DNA of 64,000 nucleotides from Alphaproteobacteria bacterium. GTDB lineage: Bacteria; Pseudomonadota; Alphaproteobacteria; CAAHEQ01; UBA3637. Positions 24,553 to 33,722 of this stretch are shown one piece after another; position 1 is the first letter of the stretch; each line of letters opens with the position of its first letter. The notes beneath the pieces are model-generated. The model saw only the letters and a program-made list of their open reading frames with translations. It did no database searches and was not told the origin of the DNA. The stretch is taken from NCBI GenBank assembly GCA_045532865.1, contig JAZSGT010000028.1, forward strand, positions 18,507 through 82,506, written 5' to 3'. Made by a program: the position numbers and the translations under genes.

Positions 24553-25113
24553 ATGATGCGATTTTTAGCAATAATGACAAGTGTTTTGTTTTTCTCTGGA
24601 TTAGCACATGCAAGTTCAGAAATGACACCTGAAGGTTTTTTTGGAGAGTGGCGTGTTTATACGGCCAAAGAGGGGAATGGAACGGTTTGTTTTATGGTTA
24701 CAGCGCCACAGCATACAACAGTTGAAAGAGAGGGGAATTTTTTAAGTATTACGCATCGCCCTCATGAGAATAGCTATGATGTTGTTTCGGTGATGTTTGG
24801 GGTTCCTTATCATAAAAAATCACGTCCAACGATTGAAATAGATAATCATCGACCACTTGAAATGGTAACAAGTGATGATGCAGCGTTTATTAAAAATGAA
24901 AAAGATGAAAAAAACTTTGTTCAAGAAATGATTAAAGGGAATGTTGCACGGACGAAGGGAAAATCTCAAAAGGGTACATTATTGCGTGAAACATATTCTT
25001 TAAAAGGTTTTGCAAAAGCATATGAATTGTTAAATGAAAAATGTCGTCCTGAGATGGTTGAAAAAGAAGAAACTTTAGCTCCTTCTGAGGATAATAAAGA
25101 GGAAGTTAAATGA
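24553..25113 (+). CDS. invasion-associated locus B (IalB)-like secreted protein
   Basis: Signal peptide; about 165-aa mature protein with FGEWRVYT...GTVCFM pattern typical of the alphaproteobacterial IalB family. Confidence 0.45.
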   Translation: MMRFLAIMTSVLFFSGLAHASSEMTPEGFFGEWRVYTAKEGNGTVCFMVTAPQHTTVEREGNFLSITHRPHENSYDVVSVMFGVPYHKKSRPTIEIDNHRPLEMVTSDDAAFIKNEKDEKNFVQEMIKGNVARTKGKSQKGTLLRETYSLKGFAKAYELLNEKCRPEMVEKEETLAPSEDNKEEVK

Positions 25114-26754: not shown

Positions 26755-26786
26755 CGATTTGTATTAAAGGAAAAATAAAAAATATA

Positions 26787-26815
26787 TTGACGTTTTTTTG
26801 AAAATTTGATATCCT
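26787..26815 (+). promoter_or_regulatory. sigma70-like promoter of the Cys-rich pilin-like operon
   Basis: ttgacg (26787-92), 17-nt spacer, tatcct (26810-15); about 50-nt leader to the ATG at 26873. Confidence 0.55.
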
Positions 26816-26872
26816 AAACTTAGGGGGTATTTGCGCCTAGTGTTTGTTGTATCTGAAAAGAAGGGGACGCTG

Positions 26873-29647
26873 ATGCAAGTAAAACGATACAAAAATGGCC
26901 AATCTGGAAGAAGTATGTTGGAAATGCTTAGCGTTTTGGCAATTCTTGGAATTTTGTCAATATCAGGTATTGTGGGGTATCAATATGCGATGCGTCTTTA
27001 TCGTATTGCTGAAACATATGATGAGGTGAGTGTTACTATTTCAGGGGGTAGAACGTGGCCTGTTTTGGAGCATTATGGTCCTTTAACAAAAGTTGCGAAT
27101 GAAACAGGTGCTCCTTATCCACATGCAGATACATTAGCTTATAACGTTCCAATTCGAGAAGTTGTTTCAAAAGTAAATTATCGAAATGCACTAACAGCTG
27201 CAGAAGCATTGGGTGAAAGTGCGACTGATTATTATGAAAGACGTGAATATGAAGCGTTTTCATCCAAAATATTTGCACCTGTATGGGTGCGGGCAGAAAC
27301 ACCTGAAGCATGGTCTGTTCGTGTAACTGGGCTTTCATATGATATGTGTGCTTCTCTTGTTACAAAAAGGGAGTTGGGCTATCAATATGTTTATGTTGCT
27401 TTAAATGATGATAGTGGAAATCCGGTTGATCCAAATTATTGGGATTTTCCACTTGTAACAAGTTATTCAAATAGCGATATAAAAGATCATGATAAGGTAA
27501 AGGCTCTTTGTGAAGCAATTGATCCAGGGCATAGATCTGTTCCTCCTGCCTATACCTTTCAAAAAAATATTTCTCTTTTGAATAAAGATGGTTCCAATAT
27601 TACTTCAGTTGGGGAATGCAAAATTGAAAATGGTGTTCCTTCTGTTCGTTGTATGGCATTTAGTGCCCGTGTGGATAATGCGCCATTACAAACATTGGTT
27701 TTTTACTGGGGAGCAAAAGCTGAAGATGAGCCTATTCCTTTTGAAACGTGTAGAGCTGGTACAATGTATGATGGGGATGGTAATCCAAGTCAATATTGTT
27801 GTGAAACAGAAGCTAGGGGTCTTTGGATTGATGGTCCAGATATTTGTTGTGCTTTAGGTGAGAGTTTGCCATCACCTGAAACTGTTCAAATTGCTGGCAA
27901 ATATTATAGATTAGATCGTGATTTGACTGGTAAAAACACGGATGGGAACGATGAACCACTTTGTGATGATACCCCTCCCACGGATAACTGTTGTATTGGT
28001 GGAACACCATGGTATGTGGGAGATGATCCAGCAAACATTAGGGGAGCTTGTAAAGGAAACTGTCCTTCAGGTCCTGTATCAGCAACTGTTCCTAACAGAG
28101 TAGAACACAGTTGGTGTTGTGAGACTCAGGCTGGTGGAATATGGAAATTAAGACCAGGAAGCCCAAGTAATGCGAGACTTCCACTTTCTTCATCTCCAAA
28201 GTCCCCTTTAAACGGAAGCGGAGGTGCCTTGTGTTGTTGGGGAGGCAGTGGCAGTGTTTTAGCATATGACAGTTCAAATCCAATGTCTTGTTTTGCACCT
28301 AATGTATGGAGTAAAAAACCACCAACATTGGTTACAGGGGTTGTTAATCATCCGTTGAAGAATACGGGTATGTCTTGTACAAAAAAAGGACCTAATGGTG
28401 GCACATCTTCAGATTCAGATGATGATGACGATGATGATTCAACAAAAACCTGTCCAACTGGTTATACATACAGTGATGCAGCTGATTCTACTGGAACAAT
28501 CCCTGCACCAGGTTGTATACAGCAGCAAACTGCTATGGGTTACTATTGGTGTTGTCCAGATGATTCAACAAATTCAAACTCGAGATCTGTTGATAATTCT
28601 TTAGGAGATGGATCTTCAAAGTCTCGTTCATATTCTAACAATTCAGATTTCAATGATCCAGATTCCGGAGGTTCTGATTTTAATGATGACGATTCTTGTA
28701 TTGTTCAGCCTCCTTTGCCACCCTTAGATATATATGGAAATGAAAATACTGATTGTTGTCCAACAGAAAAGAAAAACGGAACTTATCAAATAAATCCATA
28801 TGTTGGTGCAAAAAAAGTTTCACCAGCTTGTTGTGATGCAATACCAAATATGACAACAGTTTATGGCAAAGGTGGTGATCGGTTCTGTAATTCAGAATGT
28901 TGTAATAGTGGAGAAATTAAAGAAGGATTTGCAAATTTTCAAAATGATCCAACAGCATCTAGGTATCGCTCTGGTATCTTTGTAAACGCCAAAGGGGCTT
29001 CAGTTCCATCAATGTGTTGTCAGTTGTTGGATGCAAATGGCTCTTCATCAAAATTCCAACATCCAGAATGTTGTGAAACTGATTTAGCTCACGATGTTGG
29101 AGATGAAGCTGGTCGTTGGGTTGGTATAGGTGAGATTACATTAAATATCACAGTTTATGATACAGAGACAGGAACATGCACTTATCAAATGATTTCAAGT
29201 GCTAAAAATGCTTGTTGTAAGAAAAATGAAAATGGGTATGATATTGAGTGTAATGAAAATGTTTTCTGTTGTGGAACCGATCAAGAAGAAAATAAAAAAT
29301 CAGAAGTTTGCTGTCCGTTAGTTACAGGACATTATTGGAATGCAGAAAAAGGAGAATGTACGCCTTGTAGTGTTCCTGTTGATGGATGTGGGCCTTATTG
29401 TGAAGAAGTTGGTGAACACTGCTGTATTAAAGATATAAATGGCTGTTCTGAACCATATGCATGGGCTCCAAGGGGTGTAACCTCTTCTTCTAGTGGTGTT
29501 TATATCGAACAATCCTGTTGCCATGAGTGTATAAATGATACAGGTAAAAAGTTCATTGGCTTTACAAAAGCAGCATATGATAAAAAAGATAGAATTATTG
29601 GTGATTGTTATAATGGCTTTACGCTGAGATCGTCAACTAAACATTAG
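26873..29647 (+). CDS. giant cysteine-rich type IV pilin-like (prepilin N-terminal cleavage/methylation domain) protein
   Basis: RBS aagaagggga followed by ATG. N-terminus is MQVKRYKNGQSG|RSMLEMLSVLAILGILSISGIVGY, with Glu at +5 after Gly. The next ~230 aa are Cys-poor. The following ~650 aa hold about 51 Cys, including about 18 CC doublets (CCETEARGLW, CCETQAGGIW, CCPDD, CCPTE, CCPLVTGHYW). There is a poly-Asp run SSDSDDDDDDDS and an SDFNDxDS tandem repeat. Confidence 0.7.
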   Translation: MQVKRYKNGQSGRSMLEMLSVLAILGILSISGIVGYQYAMRLYRIAETYDEVSVTISGGRTWPVLEHYGPLTKVANETGAPYPHADTLAYNVPIREVVSKVNYRNALTAAEALGESATDYYERREYEAFSSKIFAPVWVRAETPEAWSVRVTGLSYDMCASLVTKRELGYQYVYVALNDDSGNPVDPNYWDFPLVTSYSNSDIKDHDKVKALCEAIDPGHRSVPPAYTFQKNISLLNKDGSNITSVGECKIENGVPSVRCMAFSARVDNAPLQTLVFYWGAKAEDEPIPFETCRAGTMYDGDGNPSQYCCETEARGLWIDGPDICCALGESLPSPETVQIAGKYYRLDRDLTGKNTDGNDEPLCDDTPPTDNCCIGGTPWYVGDDPANIRGACKGNCPSGPVSATVPNRVEHSWCCETQAGGIWKLRPGSPSNARLPLSSSPKSPLNGSGGALCCWGGSGSVLAYDSSNPMSCFAPNVWSKKPPTLVTGVVNHPLKNTGMSCTKKGPNGGTSSDSDDDDDDDSTKTCPTGYTYSDAADSTGTIPAPGCIQQQTAMGYYWCCPDDSTNSNSRSVDNSLGDGSSKSRSYSNNSDFNDPDSGGSDFNDDDSCIVQPPLPPLDIYGNENTDCCPTEKKNGTYQINPYVGAKKVSPACCDAIPNMTTVYGKGGDRFCNSECCNSGEIKEGFANFQNDPTASRYRSGIFVNAKGASVPSMCCQLLDANGSSSKFQHPECCETDLAHDVGDEAGRWVGIGEITLNITVYDTETGTCTYQMISSAKNACCKKNENGYDIECNENVFCCGTDQEENKKSEVCCPLVTGHYWNAEKGECTPCSVPVDGCGPYCEEVGEHCCIKDINGCSEPYAWAPRGVTSSSSGVYIEQSCCHECINDTGKKFIGFTKAAYDKKDRIIGDCYNGFTLRSSTKH

Positions 29648-29659
29648 GGAGATAGAAAA

Positions 29660-30832
29660 ATGAAGAAATGGACATACAAAATAATGGCAATTTTTTTCAT
29701 CGTTAGTTCTGTCTCTTGGCAGGCATTAGGTGCAGTTGATTGTCAAAAAGTTTATAATAATATTGATTTAGAGTATAATTTAAACAATAAACCTGCTTCA
29801 GCCAAATGTTGTGTTGATATGTGTGGTGGAGTAGGTGGTCTTGACAATACAGGGGCTTGTTGCTGTGGGCCAAGATGTGCAGGAGATGATCCTTCAACCG
29901 AACCAACAGAACCACAAAATTGTGAAGAAGAAATAATGTGTTGCTTTGATGAGCCAGAATATTATGATAAGCATCCAGATTGTTGTGAGTTAAATGATAA
30001 ATATGAGTTTGTGGCAAGCTATTATGAGGATAGTTGGGGTGACCTTTCTAAATTAAGACCTGAAAGTCAGTGTTGTATTAAAGATGAACCTAAGAATGTA
30101 AGTGGACAGGTAACAAAAACTTGTTGTGAAGGTTTAATGGGCTCTTATAGAAATGGAAACGTCTGGGCAGGTTCTTCTAGTTCTGAAAGTGGAAATCCTT
30201 CCAGTGTTGGAGATGGTGATGAAGCTTGTTGCAAACAAGGATATCCCTACAATTATGCTGGAGAGATGACTGGGCCATGCTGTGAACTTTATGGAACGGA
30301 ACTCAAGTTTGATAAACCCGATAATACACATGAACAAACAGATCTGATAAAGCATTGTCATTTTTATGAAGACAATACACTGAATGTATCAGCCTGTTGC
30401 GTTAAAGGAAGTCGAAGGTTATGTGATAGCAATTCTGAAGACGAATATAGAGGGGCTCCGAGTTTTATTTGTTGTTATGCTGCACAAGGAGAAGTTTGGG
30501 TTAAGGTTAAGGATGAAGGAACTGAGAGATGGGAGCCTGCTAAAGGGAATATTGGTACGCATAAAAACATTGAACATGATTCTACTGCATGGAAGTGCTG
30601 TACAACATTTGGTTACAGAGGTGTTGGTGCAACCGATTGTACACCAAAAGATGGTGTTACAAGCGATTTTGATGATATAGATTGCAGTAAAGTGGTTAGC
30701 AATTATAATCCAAATTATAACTTAGAGCATAGAGCTGAAGCAACAGCTTGTTGCCAGGATTTCTGTGGGTCTTCAGGTTTTATTGATGATACGGGAACCT
30801 GTTGTTGTTCTCCTGGATGTGGTGGGGGATAA
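29660..30832 (+). CDS. cysteine-rich (CC-doublet) secreted protein, partner of the pilin-like protein
   Basis: RBS gggagat. Sec signal peptide MKKWTYKIMAIFFIVSSVSWQALGA. 38 Cys in 390 aa. Terminal modules are AKCCVDMCGGVGGLDNTGACCCGPRCAGDD near the N-terminus and ACCQDFCGSSGFIDDTGTCCCSPGCGGG at the C-terminus. Confidence 0.7.
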   Translation: MKKWTYKIMAIFFIVSSVSWQALGAVDCQKVYNNIDLEYNLNNKPASAKCCVDMCGGVGGLDNTGACCCGPRCAGDDPSTEPTEPQNCEEEIMCCFDEPEYYDKHPDCCELNDKYEFVASYYEDSWGDLSKLRPESQCCIKDEPKNVSGQVTKTCCEGLMGSYRNGNVWAGSSSSESGNPSSVGDGDEACCKQGYPYNYAGEMTGPCCELYGTELKFDKPDNTHEQTDLIKHCHFYEDNTLNVSACCVKGSRRLCDSNSEDEYRGAPSFICCYAAQGEVWVKVKDEGTERWEPAKGNIGTHKNIEHDSTAWKCCTTFGYRGVGATDCTPKDGVTSDFDDIDCSKVVSNYNPNYNLEHRAEATACCQDFCGSSGFIDDTGTCCCSPGCGGG

Positions 30833-30860
30833 TAAAACAAAAGCTAAGGTTGTTTAACAA

Positions 30861-30889
30861 AAAAACCACCGATTTTATCGGTGGTTTTC
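30861..30889. terminator. bidirectional terminator between the Cys-rich operon and fabI
   Basis: aaaccaccgat ttta tcggtggttt. Confidence 0.8.
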
Positions 30890-30906
30890 TATGAAAATGA
30901 TAACGT

Positions 30907-31737: not shown

Positions 31738-31949
31738 ATTTTTTCCTTCCATAATATTTCACACATTATATTTTATAGACTATTCTAGATAAAGATATAC
31801 GAAAAGTCAAAAAAAAGCAAATGACACTTTTATGACAGTTGTAAAATAAAGGCTAGTAGCTCAAAATGAGCGTTTTTTTTGTTTTTGTCTGGTTGACTTT
31901 TATTGAAAATAAGTGTATTATTTTTCAACATAATTTAAAGGAGTATAAT

Positions 31950-33722
31950 ATGAAAGCTGCTGAGTTAAGAAAAAAGTTTATCGATTTTTTTGTTTCAAAA
32001 AATCATGTGGAGATTAAAAGCGCTCCATTAATTCCTGATAATGATCCAACTGTTCTTTTTACAATGGCTGGGATGCATCCATTGGTTCCGTTTTTGTTGG
32101 GCGCTCCTCATCCAGCTGGGAAGCGTTTGGTTGATTTTCAAAAATGTATCAGAACAGGTGATATTGAAGAGGTGGGTGATAAGGTTCATTTAACTTTTTT
32201 TGAAATGCTTGGTAATTGGTCCATTGGTGATTATTTTAAAAAAGAAGCAATAGAATATAGTTTTGAATTTTTAACAAGCAAAGAATGGCTAGGACTTGAT
32301 TTAGATAAATTAGCATTTACTGTTTTTGCAGGGAATGCGCATGCTCCTTTTGATGAAGAGGCTTATAATACATGGCTTTCATTGGGTGTTTCTCCAAACA
32401 AAATTGCAAAACTGGAAGCAAACTGGTGGGGTCCAGCAGGGGTAACAGGCCCTTGTGGTCCAGATACAGAAATGTTCTATTGGACTGGCTCAGAACCAAC
32501 ACCAGAAGTTTTTGATCCAGAAAATCCTCTTTGGGTCGAAATTTGGAATGATGTTTTGATGCAATATAATAAAAATGAAAAAGGCGAGCTTGAAAAGTTA
32601 GCCCATCCAAATGTTGATACTGGTATGGGTTTTGAACGTGTTGTTGCTGTATTAAATGGATTTGACAGTTGTTATGACACAGAACTTTTCGTTCCATTAT
32701 TTGAAGCGTTGGATAAATTCCGTGGTATTGAAACGCCTTCTGAACGGACGAGAGAAGAACGCATTATTATTGATCATGCAAGAGCTGCCACGTTTATTAT
32801 GGCTGAAGGGATTACTCCAGGGAATAAAGATCAACAATACCAATTGCGCCGTATCGTTCGCAGAATGTTAGGGGAAGGGCATAAATTGAATTTAGCTCCA
32901 GGTTTTGCATTACCTGTTGCTGAAAAAGTGATTGAAATGTATCAAGGATATTATCCAGAACTTGCTAAAAACAAAGAACTTATTTTATCAGCTTTTGAAT
33001 TGGAAGAAAAAGATTTTTCAAAAACACTTGTTCGTGGTGTTCAAATGTTTGAAAAAGCTATTCAAGATGAAAAAAATGTTCAAAATGGCGTTTTAAGTGG
33101 TTTGGTTGTTTTTGATTTGGCTCAAACATTTGGGTTCCCAAAAGAAATGGCTGTTATGATGGCTGAAGAAAAAGGTCTTAAAGTGAATTTAAAAGAATTT
33201 GATGAAGCCTTTAAACACCATCAAGATATTTCTCGTGGGGCATCTGCTCCTTGTGGTTTAGCTGATAAAAAAGAAGAAACAACAGCACTTCATACAGCAA
33301 CACACTTGTTGCACCAAGCACTCAGAACAGTTCTTGGAACTCATGTGGAGCAACGTGGTTCTCACATTACAGCTGAACGGTTGCGTTTTGACTTTTCTCA
33401 TCATGAAAAAGTTTCTCCAGATGATTTGAAAAAAGTTGAAGATCTTGTCAATGAGGTTATTCAAAAAGATATGCCAGTTCTGTGTGAAGAAATGACTCTT
33501 GATGAGGCTTTACAAAAAGGAGCAATTGGTCTTTTTGCTAATAAGTATGGTGAAAAAGTAACTGTTTACTCTATGGGTGATTTTAGTAAAGAGGTTTGTG
33601 CAGGTCCTCACGTAACAAATACTGGTGTTTTAAAATCATTCCATATCATGAAAGAGGAAAGCTCTAGTAAAGGTGTTCGCCGAATAAAAGCAACGGTAGG
33701 ATTTGTGAAAAACAATGCATAA
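31950..33722 (+). CDS. alaS: alanine--tRNA ligase, compact form (lacks beta-barrel linker and C-Ala domain)
   Basis: AlaRS class II catalytic core (FTMAGMHP, GDYFK, WGPAGVTGPCGPDTE, DTGMGFERV); editing-core HTATHLLH and CAGPHV motifs present; only about 590 aa; RBS aaaggag. Confidence 0.85.
   Translation: MKAAELRKKFIDFFVSKNHVEIKSAPLIPDNDPTVLFTMAGMHPLVPFLLGAPHPAGKRLVDFQKCIRTGDIEEVGDKVHLTFFEMLGNWSIGDYFKKEAIEYSFEFLTSKEWLGLDLDKLAFTVFAGNAHAPFDEEAYNTWLSLGVSPNKIAKLEANWWGPAGVTGPCGPDTEMFYWTGSEPTPEVFDPENPLWVEIWNDVLMQYNKNEKGELEKLAHPNVDTGMGFERVVAVLNGFDSCYDTELFVPLFEALDKFRGIETPSERTREERIIIDHARAATFIMAEGITPGNKDQQYQLRRIVRRMLGEGHKLNLAPGFALPVAEKVIEMYQGYYPELAKNKELILSAFELEEKDFSKTLVRGVQMFEKAIQDEKNVQNGVLSGLVVFDLAQTFGFPKEMAVMMAEEKGLKVNLKEFDEAFKHHQDISRGASAPCGLADKKEETTALHTATHLLHQALRTVLGTHVEQRGSHITAERLRFDFSHHEKVSPDDLKKVEDLVNEVIQKDMPVLCEEMTLDEALQKGAIGLFANKYGEKVTVYSMGDFSKEVCAGPHVTNTGVLKSFHIMKEESSSKGVRRIKATVGFVKNNA

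What the first reader, a model, noticed from the sequence alone, without database searches (positions are those of the whole stretch)
26787..30892. Self-contained two-gene locus encoding giant Cys-rich (CC-doublet) secreted proteins, the first pilin-like: candidate undescribed surface or pilus-associated system
A strong promoter (26787-26815) and a bidirectional terminator (30861-30889) bracket two co-oriented genes, wedged between housekeeping genes (nitroreductase and fabI). The first protein (924 aa) pairs a type IV prepilin-like N-terminus with a ~650-aa region dominated by CC doublets, about 18 by my count. Examples are CCETEARGLW, CCETQAGGIW, CCPLVTGHYW and CCxxxxxxCC. The second (390 aa) is an ordinary Sec-secreted protein that is about 10% Cys, again mostly as CC or CCC. 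I recognise no described bacterial family with this architecture. A disulfide-cross-linked or metal-binding surface fibre, perhaps adhesin-like, displayed via a pilin-type anchor in an AT-rich intracellular alphaproteobacterium would be new. The prepilin peptidase and assembly genes are not in this window.
Basis: partly seen in the sequence, partly recalled or inferred. Interest (0 to 1): 0.9.

Follow-up and report, generated by a model that had tools for sequence, protein, structure and literature searches.

The report
Hypervariable cysteine-rich pilin and secreted partner
A gut alphaproteobacterium carries a fast-evolving two-gene locus: a giant type IVb-like pilin fused to an undescribed cysteine-doublet domain, plus a secreted cysteine-rich partner, most likely a variable pilus-tip recognition device whose function is untested.

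Summary
ORF1 (26873-29647, 924 aa) and ORF2 (29660-30832, 390 aa) sit between a conserved promoter and a hairpin terminator. CC doublets number 16 and 15, against about 3 in shuffles.

The pair keeps its position in related animal-gut MAGs and is hypervariable. Flanking proteins are 95-99% identical, ORF1 and ORF2 about 60%. dN is about 9-45 times that of the housekeeping flanks. Cysteines are 96-100% conserved.

Sister genomes carry arrays of small pilins with the same leader. Elsewhere this leader class lies in a complete type IVb pilus operon.

My best reading is a pilus-tip minor pilin with a secreted partner, comparable to CofB/CofJ. That function is inferred. No prepilin peptidase or assembly gene was seen in the DNA I could fetch.

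It is a new variant of a known kind, the modular pilin.

The parts
26762..26815 (+). Promoter: A-rich UP-like tract (GGAAAAATAAAAAATA), -35 TTGACG (26787), 17-nt spacer ending in TG, -10 TATCCT (to 26815)
   Evidence: Sequence and scan. The hexamers and the A-tract are invariant or nearly so in L001, L002, L003 and L007.
26816..26872 (+). Conserved 5'UTR with an AAGGGGA Shine-Dalgarno sequence; possible weak hairpin pairing TGTATC with the start-codon region GATGCA
   Evidence: Alignment. RNAalifold gives -5.3 kcal/mol, with no covariation in the start-codon helix (one compensatory change, in the other short helix). This is a lead only.
26873..26908 (+). ORF1 leader peptide (aa 1-12, MQVKRYKNGQSG) of a class III (prepilin-type) signal; predicted cleavage is G12|R13
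   Evidence: G12, R13, M15 and E17 are invariant in 14 of 14 family members. The same G-R-S-M-x-E is invariant in 30 small pilins. Cleavage is inferred.
26873..27742 (+). ORF1 pilin module (aa 1-~290): alpha-1 helix (aa 15-61) plus alpha/beta head with conserved C159 and C213
27743..29644 (+). ORF1 CC-repeat region (aa 291-924): 50 Cys, 16 CC doublets, recurring CC-x2-5-G-x1-2-[WYF] and CC-x12-16-CC units
   Evidence: No family or PDB match. Cys are 96-100% conserved against 39-56% for other residues.
28556..28696 (+). Asp/Ser/Asn-rich low-complexity linker inside ORF1 (aa ~562-608); length-variable among homologs
   Evidence: Sequence, alignment gaps, pLDDT below 50 over 565-606, nucleotide identity minimum of 46-47%.
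29660..30832 (+). ORF2: 390-aa secreted Cys-rich protein (includes stop codon)
29660..29734 (+). ORF2 Sec-type signal peptide (aa 1-25, MKKWTYKIMAIFFIVSSVSWQALGA); not a lipobox
   Evidence: Sequence; conserved in homologs. The cleavage site is inferred.
29741..29866 (+). ORF2 N-terminal 42-aa module C-x21-CC-x3-CG-...-G-x-CCC
   Evidence: HMM domain with i-E 1.3e-22; AF2 pLDDT 73-81.
30683..30808 (+). ORF2 C-terminal copy of the same 42-aa module
   Evidence: HMM domain with i-E 5.5e-23; AF2 pLDDT 78-87.
30861..30889 (.). Bidirectional intrinsic terminator hairpin (ACCACCGA-TTTT-TCGGTGGT flanked by an A-run and a T-run), shared with convergent fabI
   Evidence: Sequence; conserved in L001 and L002.

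Best explanation
Proposed model. ORF1 is a modular minor pilin of the type IVb class. After insertion in the inner membrane, a prepilin peptidase would cut the 12-residue leader at G12|R13. The alpha-1 helix and the roughly 290-aa head would then dock the protein into a type IVb filament built from small major pilins that carry the same leader and are encoded elsewhere. Because the cargo is bulky, the most likely position is the tip. The tip would display a roughly 630-aa ectodomain scaffolded by conserved cysteine doublets, whose loops evolve fast.

ORF2 is co-transcribed, exported by Sec, and built from related CC units. It would act as a soluble partner that is released through, or binds to, the pilus tip, as CofJ does with CofB and TcpF with TcpB. 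Together they would set what the bacterium attaches to: a host surface, mucus or another cell.

Shown: the gene structure, the pilin homology and fold, the novelty of the Cys-rich modules, the conserved pairing and synteny, the conserved expression signals, the hypervariability with conserved cysteines, and the pilin arrays in sister genomes.

Inferred: leader cleavage, filament incorporation, tip position, disulfide formation, the ORF1-ORF2 interaction and the adhesive role.
For: Pilin identity of ORF1:
- G12, R13, M15 and E17 are invariant in the family.
- The AF2 model has a 47-residue N-terminal helix and an alpha/beta head.
- 13 of the top 14 Foldseek PDB hits are type IVb pilins.
- hhalign gives 99.8% and E 3e-28 over 146 columns to small pilins. 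One of those passes the Pfam PilS and Bundlin thresholds.

Link to a type IVb machine:
- Pilins with the same leader lie in an operon with TcpQ, secretin, PilO, T2SSE, T2SSF and a second ATPase.
- Sister genomes (the same MAGs as L001 and L002) carry the same leader on 13 small pilin paralogs found in one 20-kb stretch, and on further copies elsewhere.

The two genes as a unit:
- They co-occur in 8 of 9 loci and are 12 nt apart.
- The promoter, 5'UTR and terminator are conserved.
- The CC blocks of the two proteins align in register (E 1e-4, probability 55%).
- The pattern CC-x3-C[GS]-...-CCC is found only in the ORF2 family and in five ORF1 homologs among 289 fetched proteins.

Exposure and selection:
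- dN is 0.27-0.35 against 0.006-0.041 for the housekeeping flanks, at comparable dS.
- Cys are 96-100% conserved while other residues are 39-56% identical.
- Nucleotide identity falls from 88-98% to 46-70% exactly across the two genes.

Precedent: modular pilins (PMC8179133) and CofB/CofJ (PMC6048534).
Against: - No prepilin peptidase, ATPase, platform protein or secretin was found in the window or in any DNA fetched from sister genomes. Whole genomes could not be searched.
- If the organism belongs to order Rs-D84, which I did not test, the one paper on that order reports type IV pili only for another lineage (PMC12306168).
- ORF1 does not reach the Pfam N_methyl or TIGR02532 thresholds.
- Arg at +1 is unusual for a pilin (my knowledge).
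- The locus is an orphan among housekeeping genes, not inside a pilus operon as cofB/cofJ and tcpB/tcpF are.
- The CC region was modelled poorly and ORF2 worse, so neither a fold nor disulfides are shown.
- dN/dS stays below 1 and dS is near saturation, so positive selection is not demonstrated.
- The ORF1-ORF2 profile match is marginal and may reflect composition.
Confidence: 0.5

Rival explanations
1. Envelope-scaffold reading. ORF1 is not polymerised into a pilus. Its pilin-type helix serves as an inner-membrane anchor or as a short pseudopilus component. The Cys-rich domain and ORF2 would form a disulfide-cross-linked periplasmic or outer-envelope layer, functionally like the chlamydial cysteine-rich envelope proteins.
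For: - No assembly genes were seen in any fetched DNA.
- Both proteins are very Cys-rich and exported.
- The relatives of this organism appear to have reduced genomes, where envelope shortcuts occur. This rests on PMC12306168, and membership of that order was not tested.
Against: - G-1 and E+5 would not need to be invariant in a mere anchor.
- The whole pilin head is conserved and homologous to filament-forming type IVb pilins.
- A structural envelope layer would not be expected to evolve about 9-45 times faster than the neighbouring genes.
- There is no similarity to chlamydial envelope families in Pfam.
Confidence: 0.17
2. Secretion-piston reading. The type IVb-like filament works mainly as a secretion device. 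ORF2 is its dedicated exoprotein, an effector or colonisation factor acting on a eukaryotic or bacterial partner. ORF1 would be the specific minor pilin that recognises ORF2 and pushes it out, as TcpB does for TcpF.
For: - The gene pairing is tight and the two proteins evolve at similarly high rates.
- ORF2 has a Sec leader.
- There is precedent for pilus-dependent secretion of TcpF via the minor pilin TcpB (abstracts of PMC9565799 and PMC10120004 listed).
- Sister genomes hold large ankyrin-repeat arrays, which suggests interaction with eukaryotic cells.
Against: - ORF2 has no recognisable enzymatic or toxin domain.
- The huge ORF1 ectodomain is not needed for a piston role.
- The same missing-machinery caveat applies.
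- This reading overlaps with the best explanation rather than excluding it.
Confidence: 0.18
3. Thiol or metal reading. The CC doublets stay reduced in the anoxic gut and bind metals (Cu, Zn, Cd) or buffer redox stress, like an exported metallothionein.
For: - The Cys content is high, with vicinal cysteines.
- The habitat is anaerobic.
- No Dsb-like CxxC protein was seen in the window.
Against: - Metallothionein-like binders do not need a pilin module, a 900-aa size or hypervariable loops.
- The regular CC-x12-16-CC spacing, with Gly and aromatic positions between doublets, looks like a folded hairpin scaffold.
- There are no His- or Met-rich metal motifs and no metal-related Pfam hit.
Confidence: 0.07
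4. Decaying or unexpressed gene remnants, or an assembly artefact.
For: The public gene call for ORF1 starts at an internal Met and gives 910 aa. Homologs are few: 14 and 7 among 5.8 billion proteins.
Against: - Full-length intact ORFs exist in at least 9 independently assembled genomes.
- dN/dS is 0.2-0.5, not about 1, among close relatives.
- Cys are 96-100% conserved.
- The promoter, Shine-Dalgarno sequence and terminator are conserved.
Confidence: 0.02

Closest known systems
Modular type IV pilins (for example Streptococcus sanguinis PilB and PilC; Raynaud et al. 2021, PMC8179133)
   Same: Both have an N-terminal class III signal and pilin module carrying a bulky C-terminal functional module, thought to be displayed at the filament tip. 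That paper notes many such pilins have extra modules not yet defined by any signature.
   Different: Here the pilin module is of the type IVb class and itself about 290 aa. The cargo is about 630 aa of CC-doublet repeats with no database signature, not a vWA or lectin domain. The gene is an orphan paired with a secreted protein, and the locus is hypervariable.
Type IVb minor pilin plus secreted partner: CofB/CofJ (ETEC CFA/III) and TcpB/TcpF (Vibrio cholerae TCP)
   Different: The C-terminal domains show no sequence or fold similarity to the CofB beta-repeat and lectin domains; the matches run through the pilin module only. The genes are not inside a pilus operon. ORF1 and ORF2 share Cys-rich building blocks, which CofB/CofJ do not. 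Binding is untested.
Bundlin/PilS-family type IVb major pilins (Pfam PF05307, PF08805)
   Same: They share the leader-plus-helix class and the head core. The profile match is 99.8% to small pilins that pass these Pfam thresholds.
   Different: ORF1 itself does not hit these Pfam models. Its head has about 100 extra residues, and it carries the Cys-rich extension.
R64 thin-pilus adhesin PilV with shufflon-switched C-termini (my knowledge)
   Same: It is a type IVb minor pilin whose variable C-terminal part sets partner specificity.
   Different: Variation here is between lineages, by substitutions and indels. No inverted repeats, shufflon or template repeat occur in the locus.
Eukaryotic CC-doublet disulfide scaffolds (granulins) and Cys-rich variant surface proteins (Giardia VSPs); resemblance recalled from memory
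   Same: They also show regularly spaced cysteine doublets or pairs, with conserved cysteines and variable loops.
   Different: There is no Pfam match to Granulin or any other Cys-rich family. The fold here is unknown.

Membership tests
Type IV pilin (type IV filament subunit) | Short hydrophilic leader ending in Gly or Ala | tested here: met
   The 12-aa leader MQVKRYKNGQSG ends in G12, which is invariant in 14 of 14 members.
Type IV pilin (type IV filament subunit) | Glu at +5 within a hydrophobic stretch of about 21 residues that starts an alpha-1 helix of about 50 residues | tested here: met
   E17 is invariant. The AF2 helix spans aa 15-61.
Type IV pilin (type IV filament subunit) | Curated signature N_methyl (PF07963) or TIGR02532 above threshold | tested here: not met
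   PF07963 scores 11.2 bits against a 21.2 cut-off. TIGR02532 scores 11.4 against 16.3. Arg at +1 and Ser-Met at +2/+3 depart from the consensus.
Type IV pilin (type IV filament subunit) | Globular alpha/beta head packed on alpha-1, with a conserved disulfide | tested here: met
Type IV pilin (type IV filament subunit) | Leader removed by a prepilin peptidase and subunit polymerised by an ATPase/platform machine present in the same genome | not testable with these tools
   No such gene is in the window or in the roughly 300 kb of related DNA fetched.
Type IVb pilin class (Bundlin, PilS, TcpA, CofA) | Sequence or profile homology of the head to type IVb pilins | tested here: met
   hhalign gives 99.8% and E 3e-28 to 30 small pilins. 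One of them, P0084, hits PilS (4e-13) and Bundlin (4e-12). There is no direct Pfam hit for ORF1.
Type IVb pilin class (Bundlin, PilS, TcpA, CofA) | Non-Phe residue at +1 and a larger pilin than type IVa (my knowledge of the class) | tested here: met
   Arg is at +1 and the pilin module is about 290 aa. The 12-aa leader is shorter than the 15-30 aa typical of the class.
Type IVb pilin class (Bundlin, PilS, TcpA, CofA) | Encoded in or with a type IVb assembly operon | tested here: not met
   The locus lies between nitroreductase and fabI. Pilins with the same leader do lie in such an operon in another organism.
CofB/TcpB-type minor pilin with secreted partner (CofJ/TcpF) | Pilin module plus C-terminal domains homologous to those of CofB or TcpB | tested here: not met
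CofB/TcpB-type minor pilin with secreted partner (CofJ/TcpF) | Adjacent gene for a Sec-exported protein that binds the minor pilin | tested here: inconclusive
   Adjacency and the Sec leader are met. Binding is not testable here.
Known Cys-rich families (granulin, chlamydial envelope proteins, metallothioneins and others) | Match to the family profile | tested here: not met
   No Pfam, NCBIfam, PHROGs or PDB-sequence match for the CC region or ORF2 at E up to 1-10. Six larger CC-repeat pilins also have none.

The most novel reading that the evidence does not exclude
The CC-doublet repeats form a new disulfide-laddered fold that serves as a rapidly diversifying recognition surface at the tip of type IVb pili. 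ORF1 and its secreted partner ORF2 would then determine which host or partner cell these gut alphaproteobacteria attach to. These bacteria appear to have reduced genomes and carry many ankyrin-repeat genes. The same design recurs in a wider, undescribed class of CC-repeat pilins of 800-1500 aa, some with mucin-like Thr/Pro tails. That would make it a general, unrecognised bacterial solution for variable surface recognition.
Probability: 0.3. Interest if true: 0.7.

Novelty: new variant of a known kind. Interest (0 to 1): 0.55.

Why it matters
The related MAGs come from uncultured animal-gut alphaproteobacteria. They may belong to a lineage with reduced genomes that is proposed to depend on partner cells, although that membership was not tested. 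How such cells attach to a partner is unknown.

This locus is the fastest-evolving stretch in an otherwise highly conserved neighbourhood. It keeps its cysteine scaffold and its expression signals, which is what one expects of a surface recognition device under diversifying pressure.

It also adds an undescribed cysteine-doublet module to the repertoire of modular pilins. It identifies a G|RSMxE leader class with thousands of members that standard pilin signatures under-score, and that the public gene call for this protein truncated. If the pilus-tip and partner model holds, it gives a testable handle on host or partner specificity in these organisms, and a new disulfide-rich fold.

Tried and rejected
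Family and structure searches
- Pfam, NCBIfam and PHROGs on both proteins gave only sub-threshold N_methyl matches.
- PDB sequence searches with both family profiles gave only insignificant pilin hits for ORF1 and nothing for ORF2.
- tblastn of the pilin module against plasmids found nothing.
- The AF2 model of ORF2 was too poor to search (pLDDT 45), apart from the two terminal modules.

Search for pilus machinery
- Motif scans for the GspE/PilB Walker A and the A24 peptidase GxGDxK in the window and nine loci found nothing.
- Pfam on unannotated large genes next to the pilin arrays found nothing relevant.
- Contexts of small pilins and of two other CC-repeat pilins held only housekeeping, ankyrin or other pilin genes.
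- Attempts to extend beyond the window by exact look-up of edge genes and of P0001 failed because they are not on record.

Variation mechanisms
- Shufflon and diversity-generating retroelement mechanisms were rejected. The locus has no inverted repeats, no tandem repeats and only chance-level short direct repeats.

Shared modules
- My first impression was that the 42-aa ORF2 end-module is inserted in ORF1 homologs P0004-P0008. An HMM of the module did not confirm this, even at E = 100.
- Only the shorter pattern CC-x3-C[GS]-...-CCC is shared.

Other checks
- No Dsb-like CxxC protein was found in the window.
- A literature search for the leader motif found no paper.

Full report
**1. What is in the sequence**

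Two co-oriented ORFs occupy 26873-29647 (ORF1, 924 aa) and 29660-30832 (ORF2, 390 aa). They lie between a nitroreductase-like gene and a convergent fabI.

The ATG at 26873 is the real start of ORF1. It follows an AAGGGGA Shine-Dalgarno sequence, and all homologs begin at the equivalent MQKK.... The longer TTG-start ORF listed mechanically lies in a conserved untranslated leader. The public gene call (P0001, 910 aa) starts at an internal Met and so removes the leader peptide.

ORF2 starts 12 nt after the ORF1 stop, behind a GGGAG.

The promoter-like site is TTGACG, 17 nt, TATCCT, with TG before the -10 hexamer (26787-26815). A consensus scan does not distinguish it from chance: 20 sites found against 20.8 in shuffles. 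However, the two hexamers, an upstream A-tract and most of the 57-nt leader are invariant in four other species. One of these species has an ORF1 protein only 34% identical.

The hairpin at 30861-30889 is conserved in L001 and L002.

ORF1 has 55 Cys and 16 CC doublets, where shuffles give 3.2 +/- 1.7. ORF2 has 38 Cys and 15 overlapping CC, where shuffles give 3.6 +/- 1.7.

**2. ORF1 is a pilin of the type IVb class, not just pilin-like at the tip**

Curated signatures miss it. N_methyl scores 11.2 bits against a 21.2 cut-off, and TIGR02532 scores 11.4 against 16.3. Several other lines of evidence nevertheless agree:

- In 14 family members G12, R13, M15 and E17 are invariant. This is the register G|xxxxE of a class III signal, with Glu at +5 and, unusually, Arg at +1.
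- An AlphaFold model built on the family alignment has only moderate overall confidence (mean pLDDT 56.6). It scores 70-88 over residues 130-280, and shows a helix at 15-61 followed by an alpha/beta head.
- Of the 14 best Foldseek matches in PDB, 13 are type IVb pilins: CofA, TcpA and PilS of S. Typhi. The best has E 5e-3 and probability 0.99.

An exhaustive HMMER search of 1.84 billion representatives with the family profile found 5017 proteins at E <= 1e-3. Of these, 1705 had E <= 1e-10 and only 15 had E <= 1e-30. Nearly all of the 150 best hits that were listed match only profile positions 1-61, and most of those are pilin-sized.

Thirty of these small pilins share an invariant G-R-S-M-x-E. 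A profile-profile comparison of the ORF1 module with them gives 99.8% probability and E 3e-28 over 146 columns. The match includes the head segment around the conserved Cys. One of them, P0084, passes the Pfam thresholds for PilS (4e-13) and Bundlin (4e-12). It lies in an operon with TcpQ, secretin, PAP_PilO, T2SSE, T2SSF, four pilins and a second ATPase.

The leader class of ORF1 therefore belongs to type IVb pili.

**3. The Cys-rich parts are undescribed**

Residues 291-924 of ORF1 and all of mature ORF2 match nothing in Pfam, NCBIfam, PHROGs or PDB sequences. Neither fold search matched the CC region.

Cysteines come mostly as doublets. These are often paired at 12-16 residues apart, with recurring CC-x2-5-G-x1-2-[W/Y/F].

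ORF2 has a typical Sec leader and no lipobox. It carries a 42-aa module at each end (aa 28-69 and 342-383; HMM i-E about 1e-22). These modules are the only parts of ORF2 modelled with confidence.

The two proteins appear related. Their profiles align with CC doublets in register (ORF2 77-173 against ORF1 286-428). At E 1e-4 and 55% probability, this is suggestive only. The pattern CC-x3-C[GS]-...-CCC occurs, among 289 fetched proteins, only in the ORF2 family and in five ORF1 homologs. An HMM of the full 42-aa module did not detect those five.

**4. Distribution and context**

Close homologs are rare: 14 for ORF1 and 7 for ORF2 among 5.8 billion clusters, none of them named.

Nine genomic loci were recovered. 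All are 'Alphaproteobacteria bacterium' MAGs, and the sample names that can be read point to animal guts such as roe deer colon, yak rectum and sheep rectum. Their GC content is 34-38%.

In eight of the nine, the giant pilin is followed by a Sec-leader protein with 8-10% Cys. In the more distant loci L007 and L009 an extra gene lies between the two, and L006 and L008 have a gap of the same size. In four loci the locus follows the same nitroreductase gene, and in five it lies next to the same fabI.

Sister genomes are the same MAGs as L001 and L002, with housekeeping proteins 92-99% identical to the window. They carry many 145-165-aa pilins with the same leader. Thirteen such paralogs were found in one 20-kb stretch, with near-identical N-termini and variable heads. 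Others sit inside arrays of ankyrin-repeat genes.

Longer relatives of 430-1516 aa found by the exhaustive search combine the same leader and head with even longer CC-repeat regions. Two of them have Thr/Pro-rich tails. The two whose context was examined are also orphan genes among housekeeping genes. The architecture is thus a broader, undescribed class.

**5. The locus is a hypervariable island**

| Measure | Window vs L001 | Window vs L002 |
|---|---|---|
| Protein identity, five housekeeping flank genes | 95-99% | 93-99% |
| Protein identity, ORF1 | 64% | 62% |
| Protein identity, ORF2 | 62% | 60% |
| dN, five housekeeping flank genes | 0.006-0.028 | 0.009-0.041 |
| dN, ORF1 and ORF2 | 0.27-0.28 | 0.33-0.35 |
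| dN/dS, five housekeeping flank genes | 0.014-0.036 | 0.015-0.044 |
| dN/dS, ORF1 | 0.29 | 0.37 |
| dN/dS, ORF2 | 0.21 | 0.24 |

The sixth flank gene, a 186-aa exported protein upstream, diverges faster than the housekeeping genes (section 9).

Nucleotide identity is 88-98% in the flanks against L001. It drops to 46-70% from about 27200 to 30800, and recovers within 300 nt. The part of ORF1 encoding the leader and helix stays at 82%.

Within the CC region, 96-100% of cysteines are conserved against L001, L002 and L003, while only 39-56% of other residues are identical.

dS is near saturation, and dN/dS does not exceed 1. Positive selection is therefore not demonstrated. What is shown is a conserved scaffold with very fast loops.

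No inverted, tandem or template-like repeats are present, so a shufflon or a diversity-generating retroelement is unlikely.

**6. Most likely mechanism**

The anatomy fits the modular-pilin design, in which a pilin module carries a functional module for display by the filament, probably at the tip (PMC8179133).

More specifically, it resembles type IVb systems in which a large minor pilin works with a Sec-exported protein encoded next to it. In ETEC, CofB at the pilus tip binds secreted CofJ, which bridges to the host cell (PMC6048534). TcpB and TcpF are the Vibrio counterpart.

I therefore propose the following sequence:

- ORF1 is cleaved at G12|R13.
- It is incorporated at the tip of a pilus made of the small pilins with the same leader.
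- It exposes a disulfide-scaffolded variable ectodomain.
- ORF2 is its soluble partner.

Only the homology, the architecture, the pairing and the evolutionary pattern are shown. Processing, assembly, disulfides, binding and adhesion are inferred.

**7. Main weakness**

No prepilin peptidase or assembly gene was found in the window or in any DNA I could fetch from sister genomes. Whole genomes could not be scanned.

A paper on Rs-D84/Enterousia describes reduced-genome, probably partner-dependent gut alphaproteobacteria of farm animals. It mentions type IV pili only for a different lineage (PMC12306168). Whether the window's organism belongs to that order was not tested.

The rival readings are a membrane-anchored envelope scaffold, a secretion piston for ORF2, and thiol or metal chemistry. 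None of them is excluded, though the invariant cleavage motif, the conserved pilin head and the hypervariability argue for a surface-exposed pilus component. Gene decay is contradicted by the evidence in sections 1 and 5.

**8. Novelty**

The kind of system is known: modular type IV pilins, and type IVb minor pilins with secreted partners. The new elements are:

- the CC-doublet module;
- its sharing between the pilin and the partner protein;
- the G|RSMxE leader class with Arg at +1, for which no paper was found;
- the orphan position of the locus and its hypervariability;
- the lineage.

I rate it a new variant of a known kind, of moderate interest.

**9. Things seen in passing**

- A possible weak hairpin in the 5'UTR pairs TGTATC with the start-codon region. 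It is conserved, but no compensatory change supports that helix.
- The alaS ORF is only 618 aa.
- A 186-aa exported protein upstream (24553-25113) diverges faster than its neighbours.
- A 428-aa gene ending in a Ser/Arg-rich tail is inserted between the ORF1 and ORF2 homologs in distant relatives.
- RNase P RNA and three tRNAs lie elsewhere in the window.

Noticed in passing
L015 7251-20098 (contig JAZQXL010000018.1, same MAG as L002): Thirteen paralogous 145-165-aa pilin genes were found within 20 kb. Their N-termini are near-identical (..SGRSMVEMLGVLAIIGVLSVGGIAGYSLSMRRHRAN) and their heads vary. This looks like a pilin variation repertoire in a small genome.
   Followed up: partly
L013 1613-20471 and L019 1-9626 (contig JAZQXL010000014.1): Large arrays of ankyrin-repeat protein genes (at least 12, one of 1703 aa) surround small pilin genes in a sister genome. 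This hints at interaction with eukaryotic cells.
   Followed up: no
L007 12894-14180 (also L009 12872-14122; L006 and L008 have a gap of the same size): In the more distant relatives an extra gene of about 416-428 aa lies between the ORF1 and ORF2 homologs. It is not Cys-rich and has no Pfam family; the L007 copy ends in a Ser/Arg-rich tail. It is absent from the window.
   Followed up: partly
window 26873-26914 versus public protein P0001: The public gene call for ORF1 starts at the internal Met15 (910 aa). This deletes the leader peptide and the cleavage site, which would hide its pilin nature from annotation.
   Followed up: yes
window 26816-26880: The 57-nt 5'UTR is more conserved than the coding sequence across species. 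A weak predicted hairpin pairs TGTATC with the GATGCA around the start codon. No compensatory change supports that helix.
   Followed up: partly
P0030, P0036, P0040, P0048, P0058 (loci L017, L018): A wider class of 800-1500-aa proteins has the same leader and pilin head plus longer CC-doublet repeat regions (up to 35 CC). Two have Thr/Pro-rich mucin-like tails. None has a Pfam match beyond one sub-threshold N_methyl hit (P0040), and the two whose context was examined (P0030, P0058) are orphan genes among housekeeping genes.
   Followed up: partly
window 31866-33722: The alanyl-tRNA synthetase ORF is only 618 aa, shorter than the roughly 870 aa usual in bacteria (my knowledge). It is conserved at that length in L001-L003, which is consistent with a reduced genome.
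   Followed up: no
window 24553-25113: A 186-aa protein with a signal peptide, upstream of rlmN, diverges faster than its housekeeping neighbours (65-96% identity, dN/dS 0.10-0.19).
   Followed up: no
L004 5501-6890: Two divergently oriented small pilin genes (167 aa each from the pilin-type start) with the same leader lie about 1 kb upstream of the shorter (518 aa) ORF1 homolog. This is the only locus where small pilins and the giant pilin are neighbours.
   Followed up: partly
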